Source of the DNA: Geosiphon pyriformis uo1 | Taxonomy: Eukaryota; Fungi; Glomeromycota | DNA: 64,000 nucleotides | Assembly: GCA_016748015.1 (NCBI GenBank) | Contig: JAAOMT010000222.1 | Coordinates: forward strand, 499,924 to 563,923 | Direction of reading: 5' to 3' | Part shown: positions 1,839-40,559 of the stretch, piece by piece | Numbering within the stretch: the stretch's first letter is position 1 | How the letters are laid out: every line of letters begins with the position of its first letter | The notes under the pieces: generated by a model | Databases searched by the model: none | Told to the model about the DNA's origin: nothing | The model's input: only the letters and a program-made list of their open reading frames with translations | Program-made: the position numbers and the translations under genes

Positions 1839-2690
1839 TGTTACAGGATGGTTTTCTTGTTATATTTAATTGCTGATATCCTGCTTTAATTGCAATCAGT
1901 CTTTCGTGAGTTCCTCAATTCTATTTGTGTGATAATGTCACTGTTATACTGAAGGCTTTCTTTTTACTGTTGTGATGTAAGTTATTCTTTAATTTTTGAT
2001 TGTTGTGTGTGTTTATGTACTCCTTCTCAGAGGCTGAACTGAAATCTACCCACTGTCTGGGGTCTTCTCTGAGGCTATCCTTGCAATTGCCTGATGTGTT
2101 TCTCTAATCTAGAAACACAGAATGTTAATGGTCTTTAGCACTTTTCTTATCAATTAGTAACAACATGAATAATCTTGATTAAGGATTATTCTTCCAAGGG
2201 ATTCAGTTAATGAATGATAATTTTATTCAATAAATAATACAAGTAAGTTTCTTAATACTTTGGGTTGTGATAGTTCCGTTTTAAATATTCTTTTTCATTT
2301 CTTTTTGATTTTTAAAGGTTTTTTGGGATATTTAATTTGAAAGTATGATTTAAAGTGGAGTTTGTTGAATAAAATTGGATTTGTTGCTTGATAAGTTATG
2401 ATTTTTTTTTTATTACTTGATTGATTATTTTCCAATATTAAAACTACTGTATATATACATGTTTGTAGTTCTACGAGAAAATACTTTCTTTTTGATATTT
2501 CAACCTGGTGTTTGCTGCTATTACCAGTTGGTGTTGGCTGCTATTGTGAACTGGTGCTTGCCATTATCACGAGATGGTATTTGCTACTATGTTAATCATT
2601 ACCTTTCTAAGATTATTACTGTGCTATATTATGATTGAATAGTTTGTATTATTTTTATGATTCTTTTTGCTAAATTCTTAAACCATAACA
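1839..2690 (-). repeat. Element A 3' LTR (852 bp)
   Basis: Direct repeat of 10658-11363; TGTTA...TAACA termini. Confidence 0.96.
2506..2590. repeat. About four imperfect ~23-bp tandem repeats in element A U3
   Basis: TGGTGTTTGCTGCTAT / TGGTGTTGGCTGCTAT / TGGTGCTTGCCATTAT / TGGTATTTGCTACTAT; also present at ~11178-11262. Confidence 0.75.
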
Positions 2691-2705
2691 TTATCCTTTC
2701 CTTTC
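2691..2705 (-). other. Polypurine tract of element A
   Basis: GAAAGGAAAGGATAA on the - strand abutting the 3' LTR. Confidence 0.9.
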
Positions 2706-3372
2706 AAGATTGAGCTCCATCAAAATCGAAGTTAATTTCTTCATTAAATTCTAAGTTACTATAGTGGTTCAATACTGTGTTATTAATTTGTTATTGTAAT
2801 TCTTGAAATTGCGAGTTGGTAAGTCGTCCAATACTGTTGGTTGTTATTATGTTCATGATTGGCTCCAACAATAATTTGTGACAGTTTTCAAATGCTTTGA
2901 AAATTCTGTAAACTGTTTTTGAATAGAATGTAGTGTTGGTTTTTCCAATGAAAGGTTCTAATAGTTGGATAGTTGTTTTGTCAAACACTCTAGTTGAGTC
3001 TTTTGAATATAATGTTTGTATGTTTAAGTGCTTTCCTAGTTGATAATAACAGTAATTAATTGGAAATTTCGTTTTCAAGTTGCTAAATGTGTCTGGTGTT
3101 AATTCACTTATTTCTATTTCTTTCATTATTAATGTATTGCCCAATGCTATCTCTAATTTTTCAATAACTTTGCTAATAAATTTGTTGTTATATTTGGCAA
3201 TATTATATGGTTCAAAATTATGTTCTTTTCTTGTTTTTGGATTTTCTATTGTTCTTTTTATGTATGTTATTTTGGAGCTATTAACTGTGATTTCTAGATC
3301 AGATTTTAATTGTTGTAAGCTTTCAATTAATTGTTGAGTTATATTGTTGATGTTTTCTAGAATAAGTATCAT
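2704..3372 (-). pseudogene. Element A ORF3, ~222 aa protein of unknown function (one premature TAA at 2791-2793)
   Basis: ORF 2791-3372 continues in frame to ...NFDFDGAQS*; homologues sit at the same position in B, C, D and F. Confidence 0.85.
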
Positions 3373-3456
3373 TGTTTTAATTTTGACTGTTATTTTGGAA
3401 TCTTTTGCATGCGTTTTTATGGTTGTTAAATCATTTTTGCTGTGATCTAAGATTAA

Positions 3457-4837
3457 TTATCTTTTCGAATAATGTTCAATTAAAACTATTGGTTCTAAAT
3501 CTTGTGGAATTTGTTCTGGTAGAATTAAAGATAATTGTGTTCCAATTCTGGGTGTTTTTGTTGTTATTACTGGTTTACTGTAATAGAATTTCAGCCGGTT
3601 ACTATGTGCTGCTTTTCTTAATATTTTATCATCTAGTCTTAGCTTGTATGCTCTATTTCCAAGTATTTCGTGAATATAAAATAGTTCATCTCACTTGTGA
3701 TCAAATTTTCCACTCCACTGTTTTTCCATTTTTATACGATGCAACAATACTTTATCTCCAATTTTGTAGCTAATTATATTATCTGATAACTGGTTATTAT
3801 GTCTCACTTTTTGTTGTTCTTGTGATTGTTCAATATTTTGTGCTGCTTTTCTTCTTTTATTTTCTAAAGTTCCCATTAATTCATATGTTCTTCTAAGTAG
3901 TGTTTCCTGGAATGTTGCTTCCGTAATAGTGTCACTTGGATAAGTTGGGATAGTAAGTTCAACTGGTAATGTGGCTTTTTTTTTCATAAACTAGTTCAAA
4001 CGGTGTGAATTGTGTAGTATTTTGTTTTACTGTTCTATATGCTAGTAGTACTGCTAGTATGAACAAATCCTATTCTTTTTCATGTTCATTACTAATTTTC
4101 GCCAGTGATTCGCATAATGTGTGATTAAATTTTTCAACTAATCCATTTGTTTGAGGGTGGTATGGTGATGACAGTGGTCGCTTGATTCCAAATTTTTGGC
4201 TAAGTTCTTTTAAGGTGCTGTTTACGAAGTGTGTGCCTTGATCTGATAGCAATTCTTGTGAACATCCATGTTGGCAAATTAAGTCTTCATGTACGAATTG
4301 AGCTATGGAAATAGCATCAGCTGTTTTAATAGCTCTAGCTTCTAGTCATTTGGTGAGATAGTCCATGGCTACTGCAATATAATGGTTGTTTCTTGTTGTT
4401 ATTGGTAAGGGTCTAACTAAATCAATTCCGATTCTGTCAAATGGCTGTCCAACTTTTATTGGTCTTAATAATTCCATTGTTTTTGCTCCTTCTCTTCATT
4501 GGCATGGGTCACAATTTCTTATGTATTGGATTATGTCTGAACTCATTTTTGGCCAATAGTAACGGCTAGTTGCACATTGGATGATTGCTGTTTTTCCAAA
4601 GTGGTCTGAATGAACATCTGAGTGCATGTTAAATAAGATAGTTTCTTTTTCATCCATGGTTATAACTTTTAATGGATTATCTGGATTTTGTTGATTCCGG
4701 TAATAAAGTATGTGATTTTGAATGAAATAGTGTTTTGCTAATTTTTGGAGCTTAATTAACTCTTTTACTGGCATTTCTTCATCTATTTGTAGTGTTTCCA
4801 AGTATTGGCTGAGATTTTTGTAAAAGTGGTTGTTCAT
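3457..4837 (-). pseudogene. Element A integrase (stand-alone ORF2), with stops and one frameshift
   Basis: Own ATG (MNNHFYK); HHCC (HSDVHSDH...CDPC); DDE core (IGIDLV, LSDQG, NGLVE); C-terminal GPY/F-like module; frameshift in a T-run near 3980. Confidence 0.93.
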
Positions 4838-4866
4838 TGTTGTTATGGCGGGTGGGTTGGTGATTT

Positions 4867-6279
4867 TTATGTGTGTCTCATTCTTGACAAACAGTTGGCA
4901 TTAGCATTTTTGGTACCTTCTTTGTATTTAATAATATAATTGTATGGTGCTAACGTTTGTGACCATCTGGCATATTTTCCTTTTAGCACTTTCTTGTTAT
5001 TTAACCAGACCAGACCTCTATGATCTGTCGTAATCTCAAAAGGTTGGTACCATAAATATGTGTCAAAGTGAACACAACTCCAGACTACTGCTAAGCATTC
5101 AAGTTCATGTGCTGCATAGTTTTGTTCTGCCGTACTGAGACTTCTGCTGGCATAAGCGATTACACGTTCTCTTCCATTATCATCTTTTTGTGACAGAATA
5201 GCTCCAAGTCCAGTTTCAGAGGCATCTGTGGCCAAACTGAATTTCTTGTTGAAATTCAGATAGATTATTATTGGTAATTCAATGAGCTTTTGTCTAAGGT
5301 ACTCAAAAGCTTTTTGTTGTGCTTCAGTCCATTCAAACTTCACATTTTTAGATAGTAGGTAATTAAGGGGTTTGGTGATATTTGAAAAGTTTTCTACAAA
5401 GCGGCAGTAGTAAGATGTGAGTTCTAAAAAGCTTCTAACTTCTGAAACGTTTCAAGGTACTGGAAAATTTTTCACTTTGTCTATTTTTGATGAATCTGGT
5501 TTTATTCCATCTTTTCCAACTACGTGTCCTAAAAATGCTAGCTCATTTTTCCCAAAGAAACATTTTTCTAGATTTAGTTTAAGTCCAGCATGTCTCAATC
5601 TCTCAAAAACTTGTTGTAAATGTTGGAGATGATCTGTGAATTTTGACGAGAAAACATTTGTATCATCCAAGTAGACAACAACAGATTGCCACAGGATTCC
5701 GGAGTAAATTACGTCCATTAGTCTTTGGAATGTCACGGGAGTGTTTGTTAATCCAAATGACATTACATTGAACTCATAATTGCCATTTTGTATTGTGAAT
5801 GCTGTTTTATGCCTGTCTTTTGGGTCCATTTCCACTTGCCAGTACCCACTGGTCAAGTCCAGTGTAGAAAACCATTTTGCTCCTCCAAAAACGTCAAAGA
5901 TTTTGTCAATTAACAGTATTGGATATGAGTCTTTGGTTGTTTTGCTGTTTAGTTTGTGATAGTCGATGCAAAATCTAATTTTTCCATTCTTTTTCCTTAC
6001 TAAAACAACTGGTGAAGACCATGGGCTTATTGATGGTTGTATTATTCCTTTTTCCAACATGCTTTGGACTTCTTCTCTGATAAAATTATGCTCCATTGGT
6101 GGGACACGGTAAGTGTGTTGTTTTTCAGGTCTGGCGTCTCCAGTGGAGATTTGGTGTTGAACCAAGTTGGTTCTTCCAAATTCGCCATTTCTTGAAAATA
6201 TATCAGAGTATTTTAAAATTAATGCTTTTAATGGTCGCTGTTGGTCAGAATCCATTGTTCCAATGTTTAATTTGGCCAA
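4867..6279 (-). pseudogene. pol: Reverse transcriptase and RNase H of element A
   Basis: SPWSSPVVLVRKKNGKIRFCIDY, LDLTSGYWQ, VYLDD, LATDAS, TDH, NANANCLSRM*. Confidence 0.96.
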
Positions 6280-6702
6280 TTCTTCTGGCGTAAATTGATA
6301 GCATTCTAACGGTTGTTGTCAATTTATTGAAGTGAGTTCACAGTAGAGGGCGATTTCTGGGAAATTTAGAATTTTTTGTGGTGTTGACGCGTTTTCTAGC
6401 TCCATTCCAAGGTATCCAATAATAGTATCTTCTGGAATGTAGACGGGTTCTTCTGTGGTGTTTGTGATAGGAATTTTTATTCATTGAGCTTTATCAGCTG
6501 GAATAAAAAGGTTAGTAAGTCTTATGAGAAACTGTTGGCAAGTTTCTGAGTAGGGCTCAAATATTAGGTCTTTTTCTTTAATTGTCCTTTTTATTCTTAT
6601 TTCTGATTTTCCATATGGTAGAAGCGTGATGGACCGCTCATTTTTAATTACTTCACCTTTTTCCTCTATTGTTTCAGCGAAATTCGCTTCAATTCCTTTT
6701 TC

Positions 6703-7089
6703 TGTCAATCCGAAACCAAAAGTTCCTCTCATTGTTTGTAACAATTCCTCACGATTTTCCACTGGCACGAATTTCCCAATTTTTACCAATGGTAGGAAAA
6801 TTGCTTGTGCAATCTTTTCCTTAGATTCAATGGTATAAGGCTTTTTTGAATTGTTCTGTAGCAAAACCATCAAATTTCCAGTGTATCCGGAGTTAATTAC
6901 TCCTCCTTGAATGCTTATTCCTTTTTTCGCGAGGCTTGATCATGACGCCATTTGAACCATTATTCCTGGTGGAATTTCAACCGCTATTTTTAGGTCAATT
7001 TTGGTGATGCTCCTGGGTGGTAATGTTGTGGATTGGTCTTTCGGATAATGTAGATCGAATTCGGCGTCGGTTGGATGGACTCTTTCGGG
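6703..7089 (-). pseudogene. dut: dUTPase domain of element A
   Basis: All five trimeric dUTPase motifs are recognisable: A(E)FDL, (R>stop)SSLA, GVINSGYTG, IAQ, RGTFGFG. Confidence 0.92.
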
Positions 7090-7259
7090 TATTATTTCTA
7101 AGTGCCTGTTGTCAAAGTATCGGATGTCGGTCACCTGTTCTAGGTTGGTATAGGCTACAAATTTTTCTGACTCAGGACCATCAGGTAAGTCTTGTTGATT
7201 TATTGATTGATTTTAAGACTGCTAATTCTCAATTTCCATTTTTCTTTCTAAGTCCCTTT

Positions 7260-7860
7260 CATCTTGACACTCTTCACAGCACTGATTTTGGCACGGGATG
7301 AGACAGTTTTTGCAGAGGTAAGTGTTGATTTGGGCGAGGTATTGTTCTTGCTCTTGTCGAGTGGAGCATAGTTGTTGGTAGTAGTCCTGGAATTCGTCCA
7401 CTGGGTCGAACATGTTGTAGCTGGCGACTTCGTCAGCTACTTCGGCTGACTCTTTTCAACGTCATATTTCTTTGGCGGTTCCTCCTCTTACTTTGGCTTG
7501 TGCGGTGTTGTACAACTCGTCCTTGTCATGTGGGTAGTGCTGTAGTCTTTTTAATGCTCTGTTGAATGCTGCTTTGAACGGTGTTCCTCCTCTTACCCAG
7601 TCACAGATGAGGATCGTGTATTGGCAAGTTGCGTCACACATTCTTTCTCTGCCTGGTAAGTCGTTCCAGTCGCACCCTCTTGGTAATGGTTCTCCACAAG
7701 CGAGGCACAGTTCCTTGTCCCATTTTCCATGTCTTTCTGGATAACCATATTTTTCTTTGTTACAACGGTTATAATAGTAGTGGGTGGGGTTTCTTAGGTC
7801 TTCGTCTGGTGCGCTGCACGCAGTTATAGATGAGAGTTTTTTCTTGCAAACCAAGCATTT
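7260..7860 (-). other. Cys-rich putative Zn-binding insert between PR and dUTPase (element A)
   Basis: Several CxxC pairs: CLVCKKKL, CLACGE, CDATC, CKNCLIPCQNQCCEEC; the pattern is conserved in B, C, D, E and F. Confidence 0.7.
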
Positions 7861-10638
7861 TAGCTTTGGTCTGTGTTACTGGTGGTTTCTTCGTAAACTT
7901 ACCTGGTTCCATTCGGATCTTTCTTCGCTGGTCCACGTTGGTACGGCTGGTAGTCCTGTTCTTTGGTCATCAGCCCAAGAAAGCTGATAGGTTTCAATGG
8001 CTGGTAGTGCTGGATTTTCCTCAAATTCGAAGATAGGTCTTTGGTTGGCGCTGGGTTTTTGGAAGTGGCCACAGGTGGCTGGAATTTTGGCCTGGTGGCC
8101 ATTATAATTGATCAGAAGCTCTTGGGTGGTCTAGTCTAGGGTGGTGTTGGCTTTTGTTAGCCAGTCATTCCCTACTAACGCTTGATATTGTGTAGCGTCC
8201 ATTACTAATACTTTTGTAGGTATTACTATGTCATTAATTTCGAAAGGGAATGAGTCGATTTCGCCATGAGACAGCTTTGTACTTCCATCGGCTGTTATGA
8301 TTTGGGACGTCGTGGCACAATCAACTTTGAAACCCAGTTGGTTTACTAGTTGAAGCGTTATGATGCTTCCAACAGATCTGCTGTCTAAGATAAGTTTGAT
8401 TGGGGTATTGTTTACAGTGGCTTCCGTATACATAGCAGTGATTGGGCGTTTTTCGTCCAATGCTGCTCCACTGAACATAGCCTCATTTTCCTCTAATTCA
8501 AAAGGAAAAATAGCTGCAAGGCTGCTATCTTCGGTAGCAACTGTTGGTGGTATTGTCTGGCTTAATTTGGAGGAATTCTTGGTTCTGTTTATGTTTCTAC
8601 CGTCATTGTTTCCGATGATCAGGTTTTCCAGTATATTAAGGTAAGTTTGTTGATAATTTTGGTAGTTTGGATTGGTTTGCTGATTGGTTCCGGCGCGGTT
8701 TAGATTTCTCTGGACCAACGCGTTCTGGTTCCACATGGGCTGATTTCGGGCCTCGGGATGCCAATTCGGGTTGGCTATCATGGGCTGTTGCTGGTAAGCT
8801 CCTTGATTTTGATACGTGGTGAGATATTGGCATGGTATTGGCATGTACTGGTTTCTGGGCATTTGGGGTGGCACATAGTAATTATTATCGCGTGCTTCCT
8901 GTATCATTCGCGTTCGACATTGACTAATCAAATGTCCTACGCATTTGCAAAAATGACAGGCACGTGTTTCTGTTCTGAATTCCTGGGGTGACGAGCGATT
9001 ATTTCGACTGTTGCTGACTTCCTGGCTGCGTCTTTGGAGTGGTTGGTATGTATTTTTTCTTGGATCCGGGATAAGGTAACTTTTTATTTTCTTAGAGAGT
9101 TCCTCCCCTAATTGCGTTACTCTTTTCTCTAATGTTTCTGTCTTATTTTCTTCCATTACCATGTTAACCATTTGACTATGGTTAGCTTCTTTCTTAGCTG
9201 ATTCAAGGGCTCTGGTGAGTGTAACAGCTTCTGGTAAGGAATTAGGGTGGGCAGGGCGTACTCTTCCTAAAATGCTGCTTTTTAATCCTCTAATAAACTG
9301 ATTTAAAACCTGAGGATCAGTGTAGTATCCTTGTTCAATTGCTTCAATCTGACGGCGAATTCGATTGAATCGAGCAAGGTATTGGGTGACAGTTTCACCA
9401 GTATTTTGTTTAATAGTATTGAATTTGTTCTGTAGTTGGATTACGGCGTTTGGGTCACTAAAATACTCCAGGAGTGCATTTTTAAATTCGGCAAAGCTTG
9501 TGGGTTTTGTTTCCAGGCTTTGATACCACAAGTTGGCTGTGCCTTTCAGGAAGAAAGGTAATGTTTGAATTGCTCTTTGGTCATTCCAGTTATTTGCTTG
9601 GATGGCTTTTTGTGCTTCTCTGAGCCATGTGTGCACGTCCGTTTCTTCTTCCTCTCCTGAGAAATCTGTTAGTCTTGCAATGTATGGTGTGGTCATTTTG
9701 TTGCCGTTTTCTGCTGGTGGGTTTATTGCTCTAAGAGGAGGTGGGATGATATTTCCTTGAGCGTTCCTAAAGATGGCTTCCCTTATATCCGGTTCTTCTT
9801 CTTGATCACGAGTTTCTTGGTTTCTGGACTGGCTGCTTGTTCCAGTGACTGGTCTTGTGATTGTTTTTTCGCTGGTCTCTTTTTCGGATTCCGATTCAGA
9901 CTCCTCTTCACGGTTTTCAAACCCTGTTCTAAATTTTGGCTAAAAAAGAGGGTTTTGGAATAGTGATGAATATCCTCCTGTAATTGGTATGTCTCCCCAG
10001 TTACATTGTTTAATTTTATTAGTATAACTAGGAGTTCTTGGCGTTTGTGAAGTTGATGTTGATGATGATGCAGCTCCTAATGAAATTTGTATTTTATTTT
10101 CTGGTGAAAAATGGTATGATTTATCTTCTGGTGAATAAATACGTTGTTTCTTTATTGATTGAGTGACAGTTTTCTTTGGTGTTTGAGCTGGTGTTCCTAG
10201 TTTTTGCTGGTTACTTTCCTGATTAGTTTCTAAATTTTCTTTGGTTTTGTTGGCACGTTCCCTAGTGTTTTCTGTGGATATTGGAAAATTTTTGTTGGCG
10301 TATTGCTCAATTTCTCGATGGATTTTGACAATAGTTGCAGCTATTACTGCTACTTTTTTTGTAGTGTATTGTGATAATTCTCTATACAATCCAAGTTTTG
10401 TGTCATGTGATTCTTCTTCCTTTCCTATATGATAATTTATTCTGGCGTTAATATAATAAGTGAGAACAGATTCTGCTGGACAACATCCTTCTGGTAATCC
10501 AAGATCACTTTGATTTTGTGTGTAAATAGCACGGCAGAATTCAAGAACAGTAAGATTAGGGGTTTTTGTCGCCACTTTTGTCTTTTCCTTTTTAGCAATG
10601 AATTATTGCTAATTATTATTTTCTTTTTGATTTTCTTT

Positions 10639-10655
10639 CCTCGTAGGGTTCACCA
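10639..10655 (-). other. Primer-binding site of element A (tRNA-Trp-like)
   Basis: TGGTGAACCCTACGAGG lies 2 nt after the 5' LTR; its complement ...GGGTTCACCA resembles eukaryotic tRNA-Trp 3' ends (from memory, unverified). Confidence 0.8.
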
Positions 10656-10657
10656 AA

Positions 10658-11363
10658 TGTTACGGGATGGTTTTCTTGTTATATTTAATTGCTGATATCC
10701 CGCTTTAATTGCAATCAGTCTTTTGTGAGTTCCTCAATTCTATTTGTGTGATAATGTTACTGTTATACTGAAGGCTTTTTTTTTACTGTTGTGATGTAAG
10801 TTATTCTTTAATTCTTGATTGTTGTGTGTGTTTATGTACTCCTTCTCAAAGGCTGAACTGAAATCTACCCACTGTCTGGGGTCTTCTTTGAGGCTATCCT
10901 TGCAATTGCCTGATGTGTTTCTCTAATCTAGAAACACAGAATGTTAATGGTCTTTAGTGCTTTTCTAATTCTCACAATAAAGCTTTTATCAATTAGTAAC
11001 AANNNNNNNNNNNNNNNNNNNNNNNNNNNNNNNNNNNNNNNNNNNNNNNNNNNNNNNNNNNNNNNNNNNNNNNNNNNNNNNNNNNNNNNNNNNNNNNNTA
11101 TTTCCCAATATTAAAACTACTGTATATATACATGTTTGTAGTTCTACGAGAAAATACTTTCTTTTTGATATTTCAACCTGGTGTTTGCTGCTATTACCAG
11201 TTGGTGTTGGCTGCTATTGTGAACTGGTGCTTGCCACTATCACGAGATGGTGTTTGCTACTATGTTAATCATTACCTTTCTAAGATTATTACTGTGCTAT
11301 ATTATGATTGAATAGTTTGTATTATTTTTATGATTCTTTTTGCTAAATTCTTAAACCATAACA
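10658..11363 (-). repeat. Element A 5' LTR (contains N gap 11003-11098)
   Basis: Matches 1839-2690 on both sides of the gap. Confidence 0.95.
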
Positions 11364-12321: not shown

Positions 12322-13309
12322 TATTATCTAAATAGAAAAACCAATCCAAAGTTATAAAGAAAACATGACCAAAAATGTGATAATATAAAATAATACAGAA
12401 TAATACAAAATAATATATAATAACTTAAAATAACATAATACAAAACTTAATAATGTGTTAATACATAAAATAACTAGTTGAAACAGAGAATAACTAGTAA
12501 TAACATAAAAAAACAAAGCAATAATAGAAATAGTAAAACAATAGCTAACAAAAACAAAACAATTATAAAACAATCCTATAAAACCAAAAAGAATATATAA
12601 AAATAAGTAGTTATAGAAGTTAAAAAAACAGCCAGACAAGAATCAATTTTTTTCTTTCTTATAATTATTATATTATACAAAAAAAAAGACTTATTTGAAA
12701 AAACACAAAATTATCAATACATGGTTATCAATCATTTTATGTTTAAATTGAACTAATTTTTGTTTCATTTTTTCATTCTAGAACAGATATTCTTAGCATA
12801 AATGCCTCAAATCTTAATAACCTAAACCAATCACTTTTAATTACAGTGATTGACAATACTAATTTATCTTTTTTTATTTTTTTTTATTTTTTATTTTTAT
12901 TTTTTTTTATTTTATTTTATTTTGTAAAATAACAACATAAGAAAATCAATTGTCTGGGAATAAACTTCATAAAAGCCTGGTAAAAAAGGGAAGCTTTTTC
13001 TAAGTTTGGATATTAACATTATCTTGGTAGCTTACCAGAAAGGTGAAAAGACACTACCAGACTTTAATAATTGTGCTTATTAGCTCGAAAAAGATAGCTC
13101 ACATTTATATACAAAAAGTTGTAATACTACAAAACATCTTTCTGTGTCTTATAACCAAAAAACTCCATGGGTAAATACACATCTAAAGAAAAAATTTTAG
13201 AGACTGATAATTAAAATCAGTTATACTGCAAAGACCAATTAAAAGTTTACAAAACTCGAATTAAAGCACTAAATATTACCATTATACTTTACCAAGTTTA
13301 TCCATAACA
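12322..13309 (+). repeat. Element C 5' LTR
   Basis: Aligns to 41381-42364; ends CATAACA followed by TT and the PBS TGGTGCTCT. Confidence 0.9.
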
Positions 13310-13372
13310 TTTGGTGCTCTTTATAAAGTTATAAAAATCTACAAAGACAAAGCACCCCAGAAATTCACAAAA

Positions 13373-16300
13373 ATGGTGACTTTCAAGACAATAGAAAAAG
13401 ATTATTCATTATACAGAAAAGTATTATTTCAATACTTTAGACAAAATTTGGGAATATTACTTGAAGTATTACTACTAAAAGAGATTTTTGTTAATATCTA
13501 CATGAAAAAATTGACTGTCTGTTAAGCTAAACAATAAACACAAGAAGAATCAGAGAACAGATACACCAAAAACTATTAACATACTTAACAAAAACCACTA
13601 CCTAAGCCATAGCTAAAACTCTTCAAATAATTGATAAAAAAATTGAGAAATACACAACACAATAGTATTTTCAAGTAAAAAAAAGACAAATAACAAAGCC
13701 TAATTTCATAGAATCCGAGTTCAAATCTGATAATACAACAGCTACACAAGAACAAACTTGATCTACAATTAGCAAAAAATCAAAGTTCTTTTTACCAACC
13801 ACTTTGTTATATTATTAGACACCAGAAAATAGAATCCTATTCAACCAATTCTCAGAAACACAAACAAAAATTCCAAGAACTTCCAGAACTATATACTCTT
13901 GAGACCATAATAATAATCTTTAAACAAAATCCTTGGAAGAATACAAATTGTTATTTAGGAATTTTATCTTAACAACCAGTCAATTTAGCAGAAACATGTT
14001 CTCTTGGGCATTACCATTAGCACAGCTCTTAACAGAGCTAGCAACTATTTCTACAGAAGAAACAGCCATCTTACTACCTATTGATCCTAATAAAAGAAAA
14101 CAACCAGCATTAGTATTCAGAAAACAATATAGTACCTCACCATTAATTATCTCAGTCTTAACCAATAAACTATTTCCAATCAATTAGAACATAACTTACT
14201 GAAATATTATGAAGCTTAAAAAATTTTCTGAAGAGGAAGATAATACATATTCTTGGATTGTAGAAGCCAAAAAAACAATTATCACTAACAATTGGAATAA
14301 TAACAAAACAATTCAAGCATTGTTTTTCTTTCTAATAGGAATGGCAGATTTGTGATACCAAAGTCTTGAAGAAAAACCAACTGACTTTGCTAATTTCAAA
14401 CTTGCTTTTTTGCAATATTTTTGTGATTTTAATATGTTTATCAGATTACAAAACCAGTTTAGTATAGTAAAACAAAAAGATCATAAAGCCATAACCACTT
14501 ATTTTAAACGATTTAATCAAATTTTCTGACAAATTTAAGTGATTAAAAGGGACTATTACACATCTGGACAAATCTTTAATCAATTTATCAAAGGATTAAG
14601 AAATAATATCTTATAATCAGTAAGACTTCAGTGCTCAACAAACTTACAAAAAGCAGTCTTTCTTGCTCATGACTTTGAATTAGCAGAACAAGAAGCCAAC
14701 TATACTTAAGCCATTAATTTGGCCATCAATAGAACCTCCAATATTGACAAAAACCTTATCCAATTAAGTGAGAAATTAACTCAGAAAATTGAGAGATTTT
14801 TAGCCAGTACTATAAGAATCTACCAGCCACTTCAACAAAGAGACAACAACAACAGATATCAACTGCAACAGAATTGTCAACAACAACAACAACAACTCTG
14901 AAGCTCAAATTCTCATAACTGTTACTATTGTCAAAAACCCAGACATATTGCCTGAAATTGCTAAAAAAAAGTAACAAACCAAAACTAAGAAAATCAATAT
15001 TATCAACAACCAAGATATTCTTAAGCCTTAGGACTATAACACTTAGCACTTCAATATCAACTGCCACAGTACTCACAACAAATGCTTTAGAATTACTATT
15101 AGTCACTACCAACAATGACTCAATTAGCTGTATATAGTCAACCAAAACTGTAAGCAATTAACTACAATTAAAGATGGCAAAACATCAATGAAAATCAACC
15201 ACAACTTATTAATGAGCCATCCAGACCAATCAATTATAATAACACAACATTTTAACTCATACCAATTGGATATTCCAATCAAGCTTTGTATTTTGGTCTT
15301 ATTGAAACTCAGAATTTTGGTAATACTACATCTTTAAAAGAGAAAAATATAGGCAAACTTCTCAATTTTTTGACTCTAAAAACTATCTTGACTACCACTA
15401 CTATTCTACCTACTACTATTACAAAAGACACCATTCTGGTCACTATATTCTCCTTTAACCTTGATAATCTGAACAACACTACTGACTTTTTTAGCAGAGC
15501 TGCTATTAACTAGAACAAACTAATTATAGTGATGTATATTAACACTTGAGTAGAAAAAATAAATATTAAATTAATACTCAACAGTGGGTCTGTAGATAAC
15601 ATAATTACAAAACAACTTATAGATTAATTAGATCACTAAGTGAATTAGGCAGCTACTACTCAAATTATTATAGCAGATAAAAATACCAAGACTTTGATAG
15701 AAAAAATTGACAATTTTTCCTTTAAAATTAGCAAAATTCAAATATCTACTAAAATTTTTATCATAGAAACTACCTAATATCAAGCCCTTATAGGAAATGA
15801 TTGGCTAACAAAAACCCATACTACTTTAGACTAGAACATACAAAAGCTCTAAATCACTTTTAAAAGACAACACACTTAAGTATCTGCAATATGTAGACAC
15901 TTCTGAATAGCAATTTCAGAACAATCATTAATTGAATTCAATGAACTGATTTTCCAACCAATTTTAGAAACATATTAGGTTTTTTGAGTGAACAATTTTT
16001 AAACAGAGCTTTTACTAACCTCTACTTGGGAGGATAAAAGAAAAAAAAAAGCTGATAAAGAACATTAAGTTTTACTACCAATTTACTAAACACCATATTA
16101 AAAAAAGCAACTATACTGACTTCTAAAGCTAAGTTGTGTTGATTGTAGAAAAAAATTATTTTTAATGAGCACTTACATCAGAGACAACAAAATTTGGCTG
16201 ACTATTACAAAATATTATTGTCAACTATGTATGTTAGAAAAATTTGAATGACCAAAGCAGCAGAGCAAATAAAACAATATTTTTTGTTTTGCATATGGTG

Positions 16301-18017
16301 AAATTCTACACAATAAAGATTTATAGAATAATGTTTCTGGAAGAAAAGAAATCTGTAATAAGTCTTGTTAATACACAATCCTAATCAATGACTGAATGCA
16401 AAAAAGAACTCTGTTTACTGTAGTGTATCAACAGACAATAAACCAACTAGAAGACTATTCTTATAACAAAGAAAAAATTTGGGAAATGGCTTTAGCAAAA
16501 TATGAAAGAGCCACCATTAAAAAAATATATGCTATTAAAGATGCCTTTGTAATTATCAAAAAAATAGATGATTTATTCACAGATAACCCAGAAGTATTCT
16601 AAAACCAATACCAAGAATTGGCTTTTACTTAAAAGAAACAAAAATAAAGACTAGTTGATCTTAATACAAAGCTGTGTGATTATTGTCTGATTTCTTGTCA
16701 TTTTCAATACTGTAACAAGTATAATTTCTTATTCAATCTATTTTCAAGAATGTTATATCTTATTATAAAATTATTAGAATTCAAAGAAGACCATAAATTA
16801 GTCACCAAAGACATGTTATTTTAAGAGCCAAATGAGACTGCTAAAATAGAACAGTACCTTGCTTATCCTGATTTTTCTAAAAAATTGGAATTAAAATAGT
16901 ATAGTAACAACTATAAAAAAATATGTCTTGAGAAAATACACAAAACTGATACTAGTTTTGACTTAAAATACCCTGGACAATCACTCATAGTCATAGCTCC
17001 ACATTTTCTTATAACAATAGACCTAAAAATAGCCTTGAAAATTCCTATTAATATGATAGTACAAGTCACATCTCAATCTAGTCTGGCCAAGAAAAAAATT
17101 GATGTGAAAAAAAGAATTATCAATACTAGATATACAAAAAATATTATCATGATGTTACAAAACAATTCAGATCAACCCTACAAAATTGAGTCACAAGAAA
17201 AGATTGCTCAAGCTATCTTTTTGTCTTTCATAAAAATACCCCAATTAACTCTAGTTATTATGCACAAAGAATTAGATCTCATCACCAAAAAAATTAATGG
17301 ATTCAGATTAAATAGAAAAAGAAACATATCCATCAACTTTATAGAAAAAAACAGCAATTAGGTAGAACTTATATACATAAACACAGTTATTTCTATTTTT
17401 CCATGTTAATAATACATTTTTAAAATAAAGAGAAAGATCCAAGATCAAGTTATATTATTCAAAGCCAATCCAAAAATCTGTTCTTTAGCCAATATAGCCA
17501 ATTTATATATGTTAATCAAAGTTTATAAACATCTAAAAATCCCCATCTATAATTATACTGAGAATACCATCAAAATTTCAGAAAAAACTTTCATTAGTTC
17601 TATATTCCTAGACATTTAGAATTCAGAAAAACCACAACCCATTCCAGATTTTATGCAATTATTCTTATTTTGCAATATTACCTTGCAAGTATAGAATCTG
17701 CCAAAAAAAAGTTATTTGTTCATACTGGAAAAAATCAATAAATTAAATTTGAAAAACTTAACCATTCTATAGTAAATCCAACTCAAGATCTTTTTAAATT
17801 AATACATTAATGTCTTTACCAGCAAAAATGAGTTTAAACACACTGATATTGTTAAACATCAGATTGACATAAAAGATGCATGACTCATTAAGCAATGGGT
17901 CTATAGAATAAACTCAACAGGCAACAATCTAATTAAACAGGAGGTACAATGAATGCTCGACAATAGTTTAATCAAAAAATTGTTAAGTCTTTGGTCCTCT
18001 TCAGTTGTATTAATCAC
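13373..18017 (+). pseudogene. gag-pol: Element C ORF1, 5' part (Gag, PR, Cys-rich insert, dUTPase, start of RT), heavily mutated
   Basis: Degenerate KLKKFSEEED, CYYCQKPRHIA*NC, LILNSGS and dUTPase (~16926-17312: TSFDL, QSSLAKK, KIAQAIF). Confidence 0.88.
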
Positions 18018-18833
18018 TATTATTCATAGAAATATAGAAAATATATTAGCACAATTATTAGCCAATCAGAAGTAAGCATAGTAAATGTGGAATTCTAGGA
18101 TTTCTTTTAGGAATTGCAGGATTCCAAGAATTTCAGAATTCCTCTTAAAGGAATCGCAGAATTCCAAGAATTCCAAGATTCCTGTTATGAAGAATCAAGG
18201 AATTGAGGAATCTCAATTATGTATATATAGTGGTAGTGTTAGAAACAGAAAAAACAGAATCAATACCACAGAATTCTTAGCAAGAAACAAAATCATCAAA
18301 TAAATAATTATTCCATATCTCAATCCACTTTCCACTATTAACACTTCATGTTGATAGTAATTGATACTTGACCACACTGGAACAATAGTTCTTGATCATG
18401 ACTATTAACAGAATATTAATCTGCCAAACTGCCTGGGCTTATTTCTTTTCTTTCTTTATTTTTTTTTATTTTTCTTTGTTTTATTTTCTTTTGTTGTTTA
18501 CTAATTGAGTAAAAAGATTAAGCGCTGAGTTATTGATGTTAAAGATAGTTTGGTAAAAGACCCAGAAATAAGGGTAGAATTTTATATATTATTGGATAGC
18601 TTACCAGAAGGGCACGACTGCCAGACTAAATCTAACTACTATGCTGAGAAAAAAATTGGGAAAACTCTTGATACATCTGCTATTGACACTATTGAATCTC
18701 TGTCCATTATACAAAGAACTCCATCAAAATCTTCAGATACCACATCTTCAGAACATCATCAACGGAAATAACTTTTGAGTACCAAGTTACAGGTTGTTAT
18801 TTACTTCAACAGCAGAAATAATCACCTGTAACA
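18018..18833 (+). repeat. Element B 5' LTR
   Basis: Direct repeat of 27262-28026; AGCCAATCAG CCAAT box at ~18060, GGAATTCC-type repeats, TATATATA at ~18222. Confidence 0.95.
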
Positions 18834-18835
18834 TT

Positions 18836-18852
18836 TGGTGCTCCTTGTGAGG
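18836..18852 (+). other. Primer-binding site of element B (tRNA-Ile(UAU)/elongator-Met-like)
   Basis: TGGTGCTCCTTGTGAGG, complement CCTCACAAGGAGCACCA; the same PBS type occurs in C, E and F. Confidence 0.82.
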
Positions 18853-18895
18853 TATAATCCTACAGAGAACCAGCACCGACAACACCAAACCAAAA

Positions 18896-21800
18896 GTGAC
18901 AGAATCAGAAAATATAGGAGCAAACCATTTAGAATTTGCAAAATCTTTATTTCAACACTATTGTCAATACTTGGGATTAAACCACAATCATATATCTGCC
19001 GAATCAGCCTTCAATTTCTACATCAACAAAAAGATTTCCTCTTTATTAGGAACACCAGTGAATACTGAATCAGTAAGAAAAACTTTCTATAAGGAATTAA
19101 TTCAAAACACCAACCAACCAACAAATCATAATTTTGCATCCATCATTACTGAGATCAACAAAGAAATTGAATATCACACTCAACAAAGATATCCCATTAC
19201 ATATGCTAGTAAAGACAAGGGAAAATTACAAACACCAGCAGTAACACCCAGAAAAATACAGCCATCTGCTTAGAAGAAAAACAGAGTTGAATCCCCAAGC
19301 AATCTATTCTACTACTATACATCTGAAAGCACCATCAACATATCATTAACAGATGCATTCCCATCAACTGTAACATCAGCATTTGGATGATTCCTATTTC
19401 AAAGTAGACAAAGAAAAACAGAATTGTTAGGACCATATGGCGAATACTTTGAGGGATTTAATTTGCAATCATCAACCCCATCAGGACTTTGATCACCACT
19501 GCCTCCACCAGATTTTGGAATCTCTGATCCGTGGGAAGCAGCAGAATCAGAAAAGGAGGAAGAAGAATCAGAGGATTAAGAATTTACTTACCAGCGCCCA
19601 ATCACTAAAAACCTGGAAGTTGAAACCCTGGATTTTCAAACTCAGCAAAATCCAGATCTAGAAAATTCGGAAATCGAAACTCCGAATCATCAAAGGCAGA
19701 ATAATCCAAACCCTGAATTAATTAATCAGCAAAACTTACCTCCAGTAATTGTCATCGATCAACCGCCAATTAATCCCATAGCCGAACCCATACAGCAGCC
19801 ACTTCTACTACCACCCCAACAACCAGTACAACAACAACTGCTTCAACAGTCACCACAACCACCTAACTTGAATCCAATAGCCTATGCATCAATCATAAAA
19901 CTTAACAACTTTACTGGCAAAGAGGATGACGCTCAAGTATGGCTGAATGATGTAGAAAAGGCCATCACAGCCAACGGATAGAATAATGCTCAAGCAATGC
20001 AAGCCATTCCCTACTTTCTCAAGGATACTGCCAATTCATGGTATCAGAGCCTGATTAATAAACCACAAGATTTTAATGCCTTCAAAGTGGAATTCCTAAG
20101 ATACTTCAGCAACAATAACAGCATCAATCACCTAGTCAATACATTCACCACCATAAAACAAGGAGAAACTGAAGCAGTCACCACTTATCTGGAACACTTC
20201 CATTGAAACCTATGCCAAATTCAAGCAATTAACACCAACTATTTCACAGCACCACAGATACTCAATCAGTTTATCCATGGCCTGTACAGCAGCATTTTGC
20301 AACATATATGTCCATTGCATCCAGGTACCCTTCAAGACGCAGTTACATGCGCCAGAAATTTTGAATCCACTGAGTCAGAGGCTAACCACATCCAAGCTGT
20401 TAATCTAGTAATGAATGGATCATCTGAATTGGATTCCAAATTGGAAAAGTTCAGTGAATCAATTAATAAAAAATTGGAAGGATACTTAGCTGACAATCAC
20501 GCCATTTATCAGCCTCCACAATGATGCAATAATCAAAGAAACTCTATTTGTGCCCAAAATCAGCCACATTCATCTTCATCGACCAATTAATGGTGGCAAC
20601 AAGAAATGCATATCTGCCACTATTGTGGTAAACAAGAACATATCCAAATTGACTGTTACCAGCATTTAAATAACCAACGATCGGGAAATCAATATCAAAA
20701 CCCTGATCACCAGTTCCAAACTCCAAATCAATACCCAAATCAAAACCAACCCGCTTACCTACCAGTGACGCAGTCATCCATCTATCAGTCTTTGGTGTAC
20801 CAAGCTCCAATCTATTAACCACAGCCACAAGTGATTTATCAACAACCGCAGCCACAAATAATCTATCAATCCCAACAAATCCAAACACTGCCCCAAAGCT
20901 TACCACCCAATGGAACCCAAAGACCAAGAATGACTCAATAGAGCTGGAGATTGGCAATAGTAGTCCATCAACTGATCCCCAGTTCTTCACAGCAATCATC
21001 TGGATTACGCCAGCGGAATTTGGGTACTGGTCAAACCCAAAACCCAAATTCTCAGAACTATTTAAGTCTCTTGATCACCCCAGAAGACGCCTCAACCAAT
21101 AACTTGGCATTCACCCAAAAACAACCACTCACCAGTAATATCCCATCTGCTATCATTACCGAAGATGAGTCCTTGGCTGCTATCTTCTCATTCGAATTTG
21201 AAGAAACAGCTGCAACGCCATTATTTAGTGGAGCTGCTCTTAAAGCCAAACCAATTACCACAATGTACACTAACACCAAAGTCGAGGGACAATCCATCAA
21301 ATTGATTCTTGACAGTGGTTCAGCAGGCAGTATCATCACACAGCAACTCATGGAACAATTAGGTCACTGAGTTGATCGAGCTGCTAGTGCCAGAATCATC
21401 ACAGCTAATGAAGCGACCAAAACTCCAATTGGAGAAATTGATGATTTCCCTTTTGAATTCAATGGCATCATGACTCCCATTAAAGTTCTAGTGATGGAAG
21501 CCACTTAATACCAAGCTCTCATTGGTAATGACTGGCTATTCAAAGTCAATGCGACGTTAGACTGGAACACCCAGAAACTCCAGCTAACATATCAGGACCA
21601 ACACATGCATGTACCAGCCACGTGTGGCCACTTTAAGACTCCTCCAAGAGAGAAACTATTGATTGAACTGGAGGAGGAGAAAGAGAAACCTACCTGGGAA
21701 GCCTACCAAGTGTTGTGGGCTAATGAAGAGCATAACGAACTGCCACCAATACTTCCCTGGGACAACAACAACAATGGAAAAGGAAAACAAAAAGAAAAAC

Positions 21801-24800
21801 TTACCTGGGAAACCGATGACTTGACCTAGACCAACAATGACGAGAGCAAACCAACTTCAAGCTGGGAATGGAAAGAAAACAAAGAAGAAAAGGGAAAAAG
21901 GAAAAAGAGAGAGGAAGAAAACACTCAAGCCAACAACACTTATATTCCATACACCTACAGTCAACAACAACCATCGACCTATTGCCAACCCAAACTGATA
22001 TGCATTGATTGTGGCAAGAAATTGTCGTCAATGAGCGCATGCTGTGGCAACGACAAAGAATATCAGACGGCAACCAAGTTTTATTGCCATGCATGCCATA
22101 TCGAATGTTTTGGAAGACCAAAACGAATGGGAAAATAGGATAATACACCATGTATAGTCTGTGGAGAAACTCTTCTGGATAAAGGGATGTGGAATGACAT
22201 CCCAGGATGTGGAGGAATATGCGATGTATCATGTCAATACACGATTCTAATAAGTGACTGGGTAAAGAAAGAAACCCCAATAGAAACAGCCTGGAGAAGA
22301 GCCGTACAGCAACTAAACAGTTGTCCACATGATGATGACAAAATTTAGCAAATGACACTCACTAAAATCGAAGGGGTGTTACCTGAGGAAATAAAAACAA
22401 TCAAAGACAACCCCTCCAGAATCTTTAAAGCTTGACTGAGACGCAGAACCCATCATAAATCTCCTGGATTCAGAATAATTCCACAAACACTACCAAGAAT
22501 TAGCACCCACAAGGAAAGAACAAGAACAACAGTTAGAGCAGTTAAATGCTTGACTATGTCAACACTGCCTAATTTCCTGTAACTTCCAGTATTGTGATAA
22601 GTGTGACCTCATTTACAATCCACCACCATGCATGATCTATACAATTCCTGAAGAGAAAGAACCAATCAGCAGATGTGCATCAGAATCAGAATCAATTTTC
22701 TATCCTGATTCAAACTCCGACAACGACAACAATGAAAACACTGGTTCCAGCTCCATTTAATATGGCGACAACAACGATACCAATTCCAACTCAGATTCAA
22801 ACTCTGATTTAAACTATGAACAATATATTGCACTACCAAATCTTTCCAAAGAACAAGAGTTGAAATGGTATAATGACAATGAGGAAGGTATTATGCCAGA
22901 ACGTGTGCATGATATGATTGCAGGGTTTGATCTGAGATATTCAGGAAAAGATGCCATCAAATTGGAACTGTATTCATGCATCTGCATTGATCTGAAAATA
23001 GCACTAAAAATTCCGGTAACAACAATGGTTCAATTAGCATCTAGGAGTAGTTTAGCAAAAAGAGAGATCAATATAAGAGGAGGAATAATTGACGTGAGAT
23101 ATATAGGAAATATCATCGCCATGCTACAAAATGACTTGGAAAAGGCCTATATAATAGAGCCCAACAAAAAGATAGCACAGGCAATATTCCTGCCTCTGGT
23201 TAGAGTAGCTCAGTTAGTGTCAATGGGAAAGAGGAAGGAATTAGGAATAACAGTGAGAGGAATACAAGGATTTGGATCAATGGGTAGAATAGAAGTACCA
23301 GTTAATATGGCGAAGGAAAAAATTGTTGGCCAAGGAGAAATTATCTCAGCTGGTCAAGCTATTTCTATTTCACTATATAGCCAGTACATGCTAGCAATAG
23401 GAAGAAAAGAAAAGAAACAAGGACAAATTTTTGAAGCTGAAGCAAACCTTTGTAAATCAGGAGAGATTGGGTTGATCAATCTTCACCTACCAGCCAAAAA
23501 CTATAACAGCATAAAAATTCCCATCTACAACAACACTGGCAATGTCATCAACATACCAGAAGGAACCACTATTGGATATTTAACCACAGAAATAGAAGAC
23601 CAACCACCAAATTCTATTCCAGACTTTCCACAACTTTGTGGATATGTTGACATCACATCACAAACAATCTATGGACAAGACAAATGTTATTTGCTCCAAC
23701 CAGAACAATTGGAACAAATGAACATGGGAAACTTAGATCCACTTCAATGTATGCAGCTCAAGATGTTACTCAACAATTTCAATAACATCTTTGCCAGCAA
23801 AAATGAGTTTGGCTGAACTGATATCATCCAGCATTAGATCAAGACTGGAGATGCAATGTCAATCAAACAAAGAGCATACAGAGTGCCACCAGCCAGCCAC
23901 GAGATCATTCGTCAAGAGATAAACAGAATGCTTGACAATGGGCTAATTCAACTATCAATAAGCCCATGGTTGTTATCAGTGGTACTCGTCCGTAAAAAGA
24001 ATGGAAAAATCCAGTTTTGTGTAGACTACAGGAAACTCAATGGTGTAACTCATGGAGACAGTTATTCAACTCCATGAATACAGGAATTATTCAACGCTTT
24101 CAGTGGGAACAAATGGTTCTCAATATTAGATTTGGACAGTGGTTACTGGCAAGTAGCCATGAATTCAGCTGACAAAGAGAAGACGGCATTTACTACTAGA
24201 GAAGGGAATTTTGAATTTGAAGTGATGCCATTTGGCTTAACCAATGCCCCAGCAACTTTCCAATAGCTAATGGAAATCATTTATACTGGCTTATTGTGGA
24301 AATCAGTAGTTGTATATTTGGACAACACCAATGTATTCTCAAAAATGTTTGATGATTATCTTCATCATCTTCAACAAGTGTTCGAAAGACTAAGAAGAGC
24401 AGAACTAAAGTTAAATGCAACAAAGTGCTTCTTTGGCAAGACAAAACTAAAATTCTTGGAACACATAGTCAGCAAAGACGGCATCAAAACAGATCTGGAA
24501 AAAATAGAGATAGTAAAAAACTTTCCAGTGCTGACCAATATGACAGAACTGAAATCATTCTTGGAATTCACCAGCTACTATCAACATTTTATCAAGAATT
24601 TTTCCAAGATAGTGCAGCCACTTAACCAACTGCAAAACAAAAATACAAAATATGAATGAACTGAAAGTCAACAAAAAGCTTTTGATATTCTAAAAAGAAA
24701 GCTTATACAAACTCCAGTACTAATCTATCCAGATCACTGCAAACTGTTCATTATTACCACAGATGCATCCAGCCAGGCATTAGGAGCAGTACTATCTCAG

Positions 24801-25118
24801 AGAGGACCAAACGGCAGAGAGCATCCAGTGGCATATGCCAGCAGAGGTTTAATACTGGTCGAAAAGAACTATGGAACACCAGAAAAAGAACACTTAGCAA
24901 TATACTGGTCAGTCATGAAATAGAAAGAATATTTGAGCCAGAAGTTTGAAATGTACACAGATCACAAAGGATTAACATCACTTCAAAAACAAGAATTTGG
25001 AGATGAAAAACAGTCAAGATGGAAAATGGCACTCACACCATATAAGTATACTACACATTATAAAAAAGAAAAAGACAATGGAAATGTGGACGGTTTGTCG
25101 CGAATGAGACAAATCTAA
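18896..25118 (+). pseudogene. gag-pol: Element B ORF1 polyprotein (extension, Gag, PR, Cys-rich insert, dUTPase, RT, RNase H)
   Basis: GTG start; CHYCGKQEHIQIDC, LILDSGSAGS, dUTPase, YLD(N), TTDAS, TDH, ending GLSRMRQI*; many stops and one frameshift near 22412. Confidence 0.93.
22896..23282 (+). pseudogene. dut: dUTPase domain of element B (open in ORF 22860-23816)
   Basis: AGFDL, RSSLA, GIIDVRYIG, IAQ, RGIQGFGS. Confidence 0.92.
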
Positions 25119-25181
25119 GAACATTTCAACCCAAAAATATAACAAAACCAGAACAATACCAATGAAAAAATACAACAAAAG

Positions 25182-26564: not shown

Positions 26565-26588
26565 TTAATCAAAAGAATATATAAAGAC

Positions 26589-27248: not shown

Positions 27249-27261
27249 AAGGAGGGAATAA
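27247..27261 (+). other. Polypurine tract of element B
   Basis: AAAAGGAGGGAATAA immediately before the 3' LTR. Confidence 0.9.
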
Positions 27262-28026: not shown

Positions 28027-28030
28027 TCAC

Positions 28031-29140: not shown

Positions 29141-29150
29141 TCTCAAATTC

Positions 29151-31196: not shown

Positions 31197-31199
31197 AAA

Positions 31200-37421: not shown

Positions 37422-37451
37422 AAACATTTTAACCCAAAAATATAACAAAAA

Positions 37452-38828: not shown

Positions 38829-38858
38829 AATTAAATAATAGAAAGAGTATATAAAGAC

Positions 38859-39527: not shown

Positions 39528-39540
39528 AAGGAGGGAATAA

Positions 39541-40401: not shown

Positions 40402-40559
40402 TCATACAAAACAAGAGTCATCATTATTCATATCTCAACTAGGAACACAAATTCCATTAATCAGACCTAAAAATATATCACAAGATTTAGAACCAATCAT
40501 TATTATCAAAACATAATTAATATATGACTATTTAATTGAAAAATTTAAGTATATATAAC

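What the first reader, a model, noticed from the sequence alone, without database searches (positions are those of the whole stretch)
4830..4875. Integrase is a separate gene: conserved stop after RNase H and a dedicated IN start in five elements
Seen: ORF1 terminates at the same residue after the RNase H 'LSRM' motif in every complete element (A TAA 4867-4869, B TAA 25116-25118, C TAG 29138-29140, D TAA 37419-37421, F TAA 60997-60999). Integrase then starts with its own MN codons (A 4837, B 25182, C 29151, D 37452, F 61030 as ATA). Spacers are 29, 63, 10, 30 and 30 nt. IN is out of frame in A and C, and a second in-frame TAA lies in the B, D and F spacers. Established: in Ty3/Gypsy elements and retroviruses IN is normally cleaved from the Pol polyprotein, which is how it enters the particle. 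Inference: the stop is shared across three divergent LTR families, so it is ancestral rather than decay. IN would need termination-reinitiation, a subgenomic RNA or splicing, plus Pol-independent packaging. This is the best candidate for an undescribed system here.
Basis: partly seen in the sequence, partly recalled or inferred. Interest (0 to 1): 0.88.

Follow-up and report, generated by a model that had tools for sequence, protein, structure and literature searches.

The report
Retrotransposons with a separate integrase gene
These are dead copies of a large group of Ty3/Gypsy retrotransposons, likely of soil mycorrhizal fungi, whose integrase is a separate gene with its own start codon instead of being cut from the Pol protein; it is likely made by ribosomes restarting after the first gene, and it would need an unknown route into the particle.

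Summary
All five stops and integrase (IN) starts are at the stated coordinates. The five copies are decayed and related, so they alone prove little; intact relatives settle it. Of the 120 best IN homologues, 119 are stand-alone proteins, and 107 carry Met at the first profile position. Conversely, 39 of 39 close Gag-Pol relatives lack IN. In 14 intact loci ORF1 stops and IN restarts -8 to 727 nt later, in all three frames; 24 of 28 distant Gypsy loci are fused. LTRs, PBS, PPT and 4-bp target duplications show normal integration. Mechanism is untested (no RNA data): reinitiation on genomic RNA about 0.5, a separate IN mRNA about 0.35. Ten paper searches found no description; Repbase/Dfam were not checkable. 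This scan noted the same layout on other DNA in four earlier notes.

The parts
1839..11363 (-). Element A, complete LTR retrotransposon, youngest copy (LTR pieces 96.5% and 98.9% identical), 4-bp target duplication CTGT; 5' LTR holds an N run 11003-11098
4867..10602 (-). A ORF1: Gag-PR-dUTPase-RT-RH in one frame, 15 stops in 1,944 codons, no frameshift, ends TAA four codons after LSR
4838..4866 (-). A RH-IN spacer, 29 nt, no AUG and no AG
3457..4837 (-). A integrase ORF from its own ATG; one frameshift near 3975; ends TAA 3457-3459
2791..3456 (-). A ORF3 (stop-to-stop 221 codons, first Met 3372), no Pfam family, aligns with ORF3 of intact relatives
18018..28026 (+). Element B, nested in C; LTRs 85.6% identical; target duplication TCAC
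25116..25184 (+). B RH stop, 63-nt spacer (second in-frame TAA, one upstream ATG), IN ATG
25182..26564 (+). B integrase ORF, single frame, ends TGA 26562-26564
26565..27248 (+). B ORF3, decayed, ends just before the polypurine tract; weak profile match (E 2e-4)
12322..42364 (+). Element C, oldest shell (LTRs 81.6% identical), interrupted by B and D; IN continues after D
29138..29153 (+). C RH stop TAG, 10-nt spacer, IN ATG
30408..40401 (+). Element D, inserted in the 3' part of C's integrase; LTRs 88.6% identical; target duplication TCAT
37419..38834 (+). D RH stop, 30-nt spacer, integrase ORF 37452-38834
54123..63970 (+). Element F, most decayed (LTRs 74.6% identical; no matching target duplication)
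60997..62412 (+). F RH stop, 30-nt spacer, integrase ORF starting at a decayed ATA (61030)

Best explanation
The five copies belong to a Ty3/Gypsy group in which Gag-Pol ends after RNase H and a catalytically intact integrase is a separate ORF with its own conserved start codon, likely translated by ribosomes that finish ORF1 and restart on the same genomic RNA, and likely loaded into the particle through that RNA rather than by fusion to Gag. Shown: the split layout, the conserved Met, intact HHCC and DDE residues, normal LTR ends and target duplications, a third ORF behind IN. Inferred: that the Met is used in vivo (context, second residue, AUG-poor leader), that initiation is coupled to ORF1 termination, that IN binds its own RNA or Gag for packaging, and that the split serves to keep IN scarce where Gag and RT are made 1:1 from one frame (copy A, locus L007). 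The layout itself I put at 0.97; the confidence below is for the reinitiation mechanism.
For: Initiation: purine at -3 in 18 of 21 loci (internal Met 87 of 140); AUGs in the 60 nt upstream 6 against 12.6 (5 of 500 dinucleotide shuffles as low), in 100 nt 12 against 22.4 (0 of 500). Coupling: window spacers 10-63 nt; 8 of 14 intact spacers under 90 nt and 9 of 13 non-overlapping ones AUG-free; L030 has its IN ATG 8 nt inside ORF1's end and L006 has an AUGA overlap of IN stop and ORF3 start. All three frames occur (2, 5, 7 of 14), which excludes one fixed frameshift or readthrough. Precedents read: termination-reinitiation in caliciviruses and non-LTR retrotransposons (PMC5902531, passages); foamy virus Pol packaged through genomic RNA without Gag fusion (PMC3705302, passages).
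Against: Three intact loci have long spacers with several upstream AUGs (L037 278, L010 365, L016 727 nt), and L010 is sister to the overlapped L030 in both trees, so IN initiation does not always need the ORF1 stop nearby. No UGGGA (recalled as the core of the calicivirus TURBS) within 100 nt upstream in any of the 5 window copies, and in only 2 of 19 loci. Reinitiation after a long ORF is normally poor without a helper (PMC5902531, passages). In L010, L016 and L030 RT-RH itself lies behind a UGA-CUA stop, so coupled IN would be very scarce. Good AUG context and AUG-poor leaders fit a separate capped mRNA equally well.
Confidence: 0.5

Rival explanations
1. Same layout, but IN (and ORF3) come from their own mRNA, made from an internal promoter in RH or the spacer, or by splicing from the 5' LTR as for env or foamy virus pol.
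For: Spacer length is free from -8 to 727 nt, also between sister loci; long spacers hold AUGs far upstream but none in the last 70 nt; strong AUG context; a TATA-like run in the L016 spacer about 250 nt before the AUG (seen by eye).
Against: No conserved splice acceptor: copy A's spacer has no AG, and the LSR codons lack a TCxAG in 3 of 9 junctions (L013, L020, B). Start/stop overlaps (L030, L006) are what coupling would preserve. No promoter motif shared across the upstream regions (by eye).
Confidence: 0.35
2. IN is initiated internally on the genomic RNA by an RNA structure (IRES-like or ribosome-tethering element) independent of ORF1 translation.
For: Eight loci, plus a variant in a ninth, carry a conserved hairpin 5-17 nt before the IN AUG: 94% of cells paired, 9 of 13 pairs with compensatory change, 0 of 500 shuffles as high; no Rfam match.
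Against: The structure was derived from those same nine sequences; the model finds no further copy with E under 0.06 in the window or in 27 other loci, so it cannot be the general mechanism; about 40 nt is small for an IRES; it may be a packaging or protein-binding site instead.
Confidence: 0.1
3. An intron removes the stop and joins RH (or Gag) to IN in frame, so a normal Pol is made after all.
For: Five NCBI gene models of Rhizophagus and Cetraspora (P0036, P0123, P0124, P0125, P0130) join upstream domains to IN.
Against: Those models join at five different places, all drop the IN N-terminus and four lack the RH end motif, as expected of predictor-made introns; the Met and the D/E/N after it would not be conserved in an internal position; many other models of the same fungus annotate IN alone.
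Confidence: 0.04
4. The stops are decay (C-to-T change of a Gln codon) and the Met is chance.
For: The copies are full of such stops, and up to 3 of 5 share one at a Trp codon.
Against: Intact relatives with stop-free ORFs keep the split.
Confidence: 0.01

Closest known systems
Metaviridae (Ty3/Gypsy), type Saccharomyces cerevisiae Ty3
   Same: LTRs with TG..CA ends, PBS, PPT, Ty3-type capsid, PR, RT, RH, then IN; best solved relative of the IN profile is Ty3 IN, 7q5b, E 3e-52.
   Different: The ICTV profile (PMC7879559, whole text) puts IN inside pol and allows gag-pol, gag+pol or gag+pol+env; here IN is its own ORF, a dUTPase lies between PR and RT, and the third ORF has no Env family match.
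YPYY-type Gypsy integrases (Athila/Tat, Gypsy-1-I_RO, DGLT-A) and Ginger1 transposases (PMC2836005, passages and one supplement search)
   Same: About 40 aa Y/F-P-Y/F-Y/F segment before the zinc finger (profile columns 12, 19, 37, 45, my matching). Ginger1-like proteins (P0133, P0163) also start at this segment; plant fused elements fall in the same broad group of the trees.
   Different: Ginger1 are DNA transposons with inverted repeats and OTU/Ulp1/PHD tails; they form their own clade (98/93). Here IN is flanked by RT-RH and LTRs and its tree follows the RT tree in the supported subgroups.
DIRS retrotransposons
   Same: The integrating enzyme is in an ORF apart from RT (PMC5890265, passage).
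   Different: That enzyme is a tyrosine recombinase, and the ends are not Gypsy LTRs.
Foamy viruses (Spumaretrovirinae)
   Same: An enzyme made without Gag is packaged through genomic RNA signals (PMC3705302, passages).
   Different: There the whole PR-RT-IN precursor comes from a spliced mRNA and IN alone is not packaged; here PR-RT-RH stays with Gag and only IN is apart.
Stop-restart translation in caliciviruses, SART1-type non-LTR elements and CaMV TAV
   Same: Consecutive long ORFs on one RNA with close or overlapping stop and start (PMC5902531, passages). Human L1's 63-nt spacer with extra stops is a recalled parallel; the paper was not held.
   Different: No TURBS core found; spacers vary far more; no TAV homologue is shown.

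Membership tests
Metaviridae (Ty3/Gypsy) | Two LTRs with PBS and PPT | tested here: met
Metaviridae (Ty3/Gypsy) | gag with Ty3-type capsid; PR, RT, RH domains | tested here: met
   Pfam PF19259, PF03732, PF13975, PF00078, PF17917
Metaviridae (Ty3/Gypsy) | DDE integrase downstream of RT-RH, Gypsy type | tested here: met
   PF17921, PF00665; best PDB hit Ty3 IN
Metaviridae (Ty3/Gypsy) | Integrase encoded within the pol gene (canonical layout, PMC7879559) | tested here: not met
   so filed as a variant that works like a metavirus, not a canonical member
Metaviridae (Ty3/Gypsy) | Short target-site duplication on insertion | tested here: met
   4 bp in A, B, D; 3 of 4 bases in C; none in F
Metaviridae (Ty3/Gypsy) | Reverse transcription in a particle that contains IN | not testable with these tools
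   needs particle proteomics
Errantivirus-like (env as third ORF) | Third ORF is an envelope glycoprotein | tested here: inconclusive
   ORF3 is 140-230 aa, predicted all-helical, no Pfam or fold match; far shorter than Env, but no match is not exclusion
Ginger1 DNA transposons | Terminal inverted repeats, no RT, OTU/Ulp1/PHD tail | tested here: not met
   IN lies between RT-RH and a direct-repeat LTR; no such tail
TURBS-type termination-reinitiation | UGGGA core (recalled) shortly upstream of a stop/start overlap | tested here: not met
   0 of 5 window copies, 2 of 19 loci; overlap in 1 of 14 loci
Termination-reinitiation in general | Downstream ORF depends on translation of the upstream ORF to its stop | not testable with these tools
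   needs reporter assay or ribosome profiling

The most novel reading that the evidence does not exclude
A large, still active branch of LTR retrotransposons has replaced two protease cuts of Pol by stop-start signals, runs a three-cistron RNA in a eukaryote, and delivers a free integrase to its cDNA through an RNA hairpin at the IN start and a new-fold ORF3 adaptor or reinitiation helper; such a free-standing IN gene would also be the missing step between Gypsy integrases and Ginger1 DNA transposases.
Probability: 0.2. Interest if true: 0.88.

Novelty: new variant of a known kind. Interest (0 to 1): 0.68.

Why it matters
In Ty3/Gypsy elements and retroviruses IN reaches the particle and its set amount by being part of Gag-Pol. 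A widespread group that integrates normally with IN as its own gene shows that neither is required, and gives natural material to test how an integrase can be made and loaded apart from Pol, and how a eukaryotic ribosome reaches a second long ORF. It also matters for annotation: in mycorrhizal fungi these ORFs are filed as stand-alone 'DDE integrase/transposase' genes or joined by likely invented introns, and intact elements would be scored as broken.

Tried and rejected
No genome is held for the window, so no family-wide count of copies. Sequencing runs: no RNA holder listed; the DNA contigs laid on element A cover it deeply, but the rows shown did not include the junction, so whether other copies in that sample keep the stop stays open. 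Viral collection: no relative with the RH query, three weak unrelated hits with the IN profile. A first hand-drawn hairpin structure was one column out of register and scored as noise; the RNAalifold structure replaced it. Rfam: 0 matches at E up to 1 in 9 loci. The hairpin model finds nothing in the window (best E 3). ORF3: no Pfam family; model of L013 ORF3 confident (pLDDT 92, 9 sequences) but no Foldseek match at E 0.001 in PDB or BFVD and best Z 5.1; Atlas leads (closterovirus coat, RegA-type repressor; 0.92-0.94, under 170 shared features) are weak. Single origin of the split: neither shown nor rejected (AU p 0.47; careful tree needs 2-4 changes); split plus Ginger1-like as one clade also not rejected (p 0.13) but not found in any tree, so a Ginger donor is unsupported. 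Trees used subsets (105, 155, 57, 59 rows) picked by hand; 18 redundant or long rows were dropped. Lokiretroviruses as a precedent: rejected, their pol includes IN (PMC7947760, passages). Fixed frameshift or readthrough into IN: rejected, all three frames occur.

Full report
Observation. The window is AT-rich eukaryotic DNA filled with nested LTR retrotransposons. Element A (1839-11363, minus strand) is the youngest: LTR pieces 96.5% and 98.9% identical, and Gag-PR-dUTPase-RT-RH in one frame of 1,944 codons with 15 stops and no frameshift. C (12322-42364) is an older shell into which B and D inserted. A, B and D have exact 4-bp target duplications, so copies with this layout were integrated in the usual way. 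The window alone is not proof: decay stops are shared by up to 3 of 5 copies at a Trp codon, and the window INs are one clade.

Intact relatives, protein level. Element B's IN, read with X at stops, found 338 proteins at E up to 1e-30 among lengths 384-1,224; of the 120 listed, 119 are stand-alone integrases of 390-453 aa and one is a fused gene model. 107 of 120 have Met at the first profile position, always followed by D, E or N; HHCC is in 120 of 120 and the last catalytic Glu in 119 of 120. Named members are from Rhizophagus irregularis, R. clarus, Cetraspora pellucida and Entrophospora; the window's own host is inferred to be such a fungus, not shown. The reciprocal search with RT-RH of an intact locus gave 39 of 39 hits at 56% identity or more without IN, at lengths up to 1,849 aa, against 73 of 81 more distant hits with IN. 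A search for longer IN-bearing proteins gave, as close relatives, five NCBI gene models that join at five different places and all drop the IN N-terminus, and one continuous ORF call, P0126. A profile search of 1.84 billion representatives added more stand-alone Met-starting INs, some outside the core group.

Intact relatives, DNA level. One metagenome scan returned the best 80 of 568 confirmed loci from about a tenth of the collection. In 21 the IN starts with Met at profile position 1; 20 of these have an in-frame stop 1-58 codons upstream and one runs off its contig. Among the more distant loci with a visible RH end, 24 of 28 are fused and 4 are broken without such a Met. For 14 loci the ORF1 stop can be placed (11 with RH on the contig, 3 by match to ORF1 tails): spacers are -8, 30, 62, 63, 74, 77, 82, 89, 110, 163, 190, 278, 365 and 727 nt, in frames 0, +1 and +2 in 2, 5 and 7 loci. 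L007 has a stop-free 1,479-codon Gag-PR-RT-RH ORF followed by IN. This excludes decay, and a fixed frameshift or readthrough.

More anatomy. IN itself ends near residue 420-460 and is followed by a third ORF, also in the window, where A, B, D and F share the stop. An ORF3 profile hits its 8 training loci, 3 further in-group loci and none of the distant loci; it misses 6 in-group loci with over 500 nt of room, and matches B, C and D only weakly. Its model is confident and all-helical but has no fold match. P0126 carries RT, RH, IN and ORF3 in one frame, so the three ORFs can be one polyprotein; whether that is the old state or a re-fusion is not resolved. One sublineage has a 200-400 aa tail after RH and a hairpin 5-17 nt before the IN AUG in 8 loci plus a variant in a ninth, with 9 of 13 pairs covarying (0 of 500 shuffles; structure derived from the same rows); it has no Rfam match and is absent from the window. 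Three loci have a single in-frame UGA-CUA between PR and RT, a recalled readthrough context.

Phylogeny. Split INs cluster strongly against shuffles, but their deep branches are unresolved and mixed with some fused elements, including plant Athila/Tat-like ones; one origin is not rejected (AU p 0.47) and not shown. Supported subgroups match between RT and IN trees, so IN is inherited with its RT. Ginger1-like proteins share the N-terminal YPYY-type segment (PMC2836005, passages) but form their own clade; a Ginger donor is unsupported.

How it most likely works. The IN AUG looks used: purine at -3 in 18 of 21 loci, G at +4 in 18 of 21 (partly forced by the D/E residue), and AUGs depleted upstream. 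That fits a scanning ribosome, either restarting after ORF1 or coming from the cap of a separate mRNA. For restart: short A-rich spacers in the window, most intact spacers short and AUG-free, a start/stop overlap in L030, an AUGA overlap at IN/ORF3 in L006, and no conserved splice acceptor. Against it: three long spacers with upstream AUGs, one of them in the sister of L030, no TURBS core, and RT-RH behind a readthrough-like stop in those same loci. I put reinitiation at 0.5, a separate mRNA at 0.35, structure-driven internal initiation at 0.1; sublineages may differ. Loading of IN through genomic RNA is an inference from the foamy virus precedent (PMC3705302, passages). No RNA run was listed for the window, so expression is untested.

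What is known. The ICTV profile (PMC7879559, whole text) places IN in pol. Ten full-text searches gave no paper on a Ty3/Gypsy group with IN as its own ORF; passages read in PMC13524379, PMC7947760, PMC5911963, PMC5890265, PMC3248453, PMC2774666, PMC2836005 and bioRxiv 10.1101/2021.03.30.436303 (R. irregularis transposons) do not describe it. The library lacks most subscription papers, bioRxiv supplements were closed, and Repbase, Dfam and GyDB could not be checked, so an earlier database annotation is possible. Four earlier notes of this scan report the same layout on other DNA, with start/stop overlaps; I take them as leads only. This window and its relatives add the wide spacer range, the hairpin, the readthrough-like stop and the fully fused relative.

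Verdict. Real, inherited and apparently undescribed: a new variant of the Ty3/Gypsy plan. Interest 0.68; the copies here are dead and the mechanism is open, but it is directly testable in a cultured fungus with intact copies.

Noticed in passing
L005:585-626, L006, L007:4463-4503, L008, L009, L012, L014, L027 (variant in L004): Conserved, covarying hairpin of about 40 nt just before the integrase AUG; no Rfam family; not in the window.
   Followed up: partly
L010:870, L016:3358, L030:1585: Single in-frame UGA followed by CUA between protease and RT in otherwise open frames: likely programmed readthrough at an unusual place (after PR, not after Gag).
   Followed up: partly
window 2791-3456 (-), 26565-27248, about 38835-39520, about 40950-41290; L005, L006, L007, L008, L013, L016, L017, L020, L025, L031, L038: Conserved third ORF after integrase, predicted all-helical, no family or fold match.
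   Followed up: partly
P0126 (protein id, no locus held): One continuous RT-RH-IN-ORF3 frame in a close relative.
   Followed up: partly
L007:3550-4438, L016:4980-6702; window about 7500-7900 (-): A 200-600 aa acidic, Cys/His-rich tail follows RH in one sublineage, where IN would normally sit; the window elements have a Cys-rich segment between PR and dUTPase instead. Relation not tested.
   Followed up: no
window 6484-6939 (-), 16900-17361, 22761-23813, 35160-35687: dUTPase between protease and RT in A, C, B and D; Pfam found none in the ORF1s of L007, L010, L016, L021 or L030.
   Followed up: no
window 42676-48414 (-): Element E, same family as B/D/F, runs from the dUTPase region straight to the end of ORF3: an internal deletion without RT, RH and IN.
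   Followed up: no
window 2733-4513, run X2: A DNA contig of a relative of element A skips 1,779 nt of IN-ORF3 and several shorter pieces of ORF1: a likely non-autonomous deletion derivative.
   Followed up: no
window 10220-10602 (-) and 18834-19400: Long N-terminal extension (several hundred codons) before the Gag capsid domain in ORF1, no family match.
   Followed up: no
L037: A split element that falls outside the main group in RT and IN trees, possibly an independent split.
   Followed up: partly
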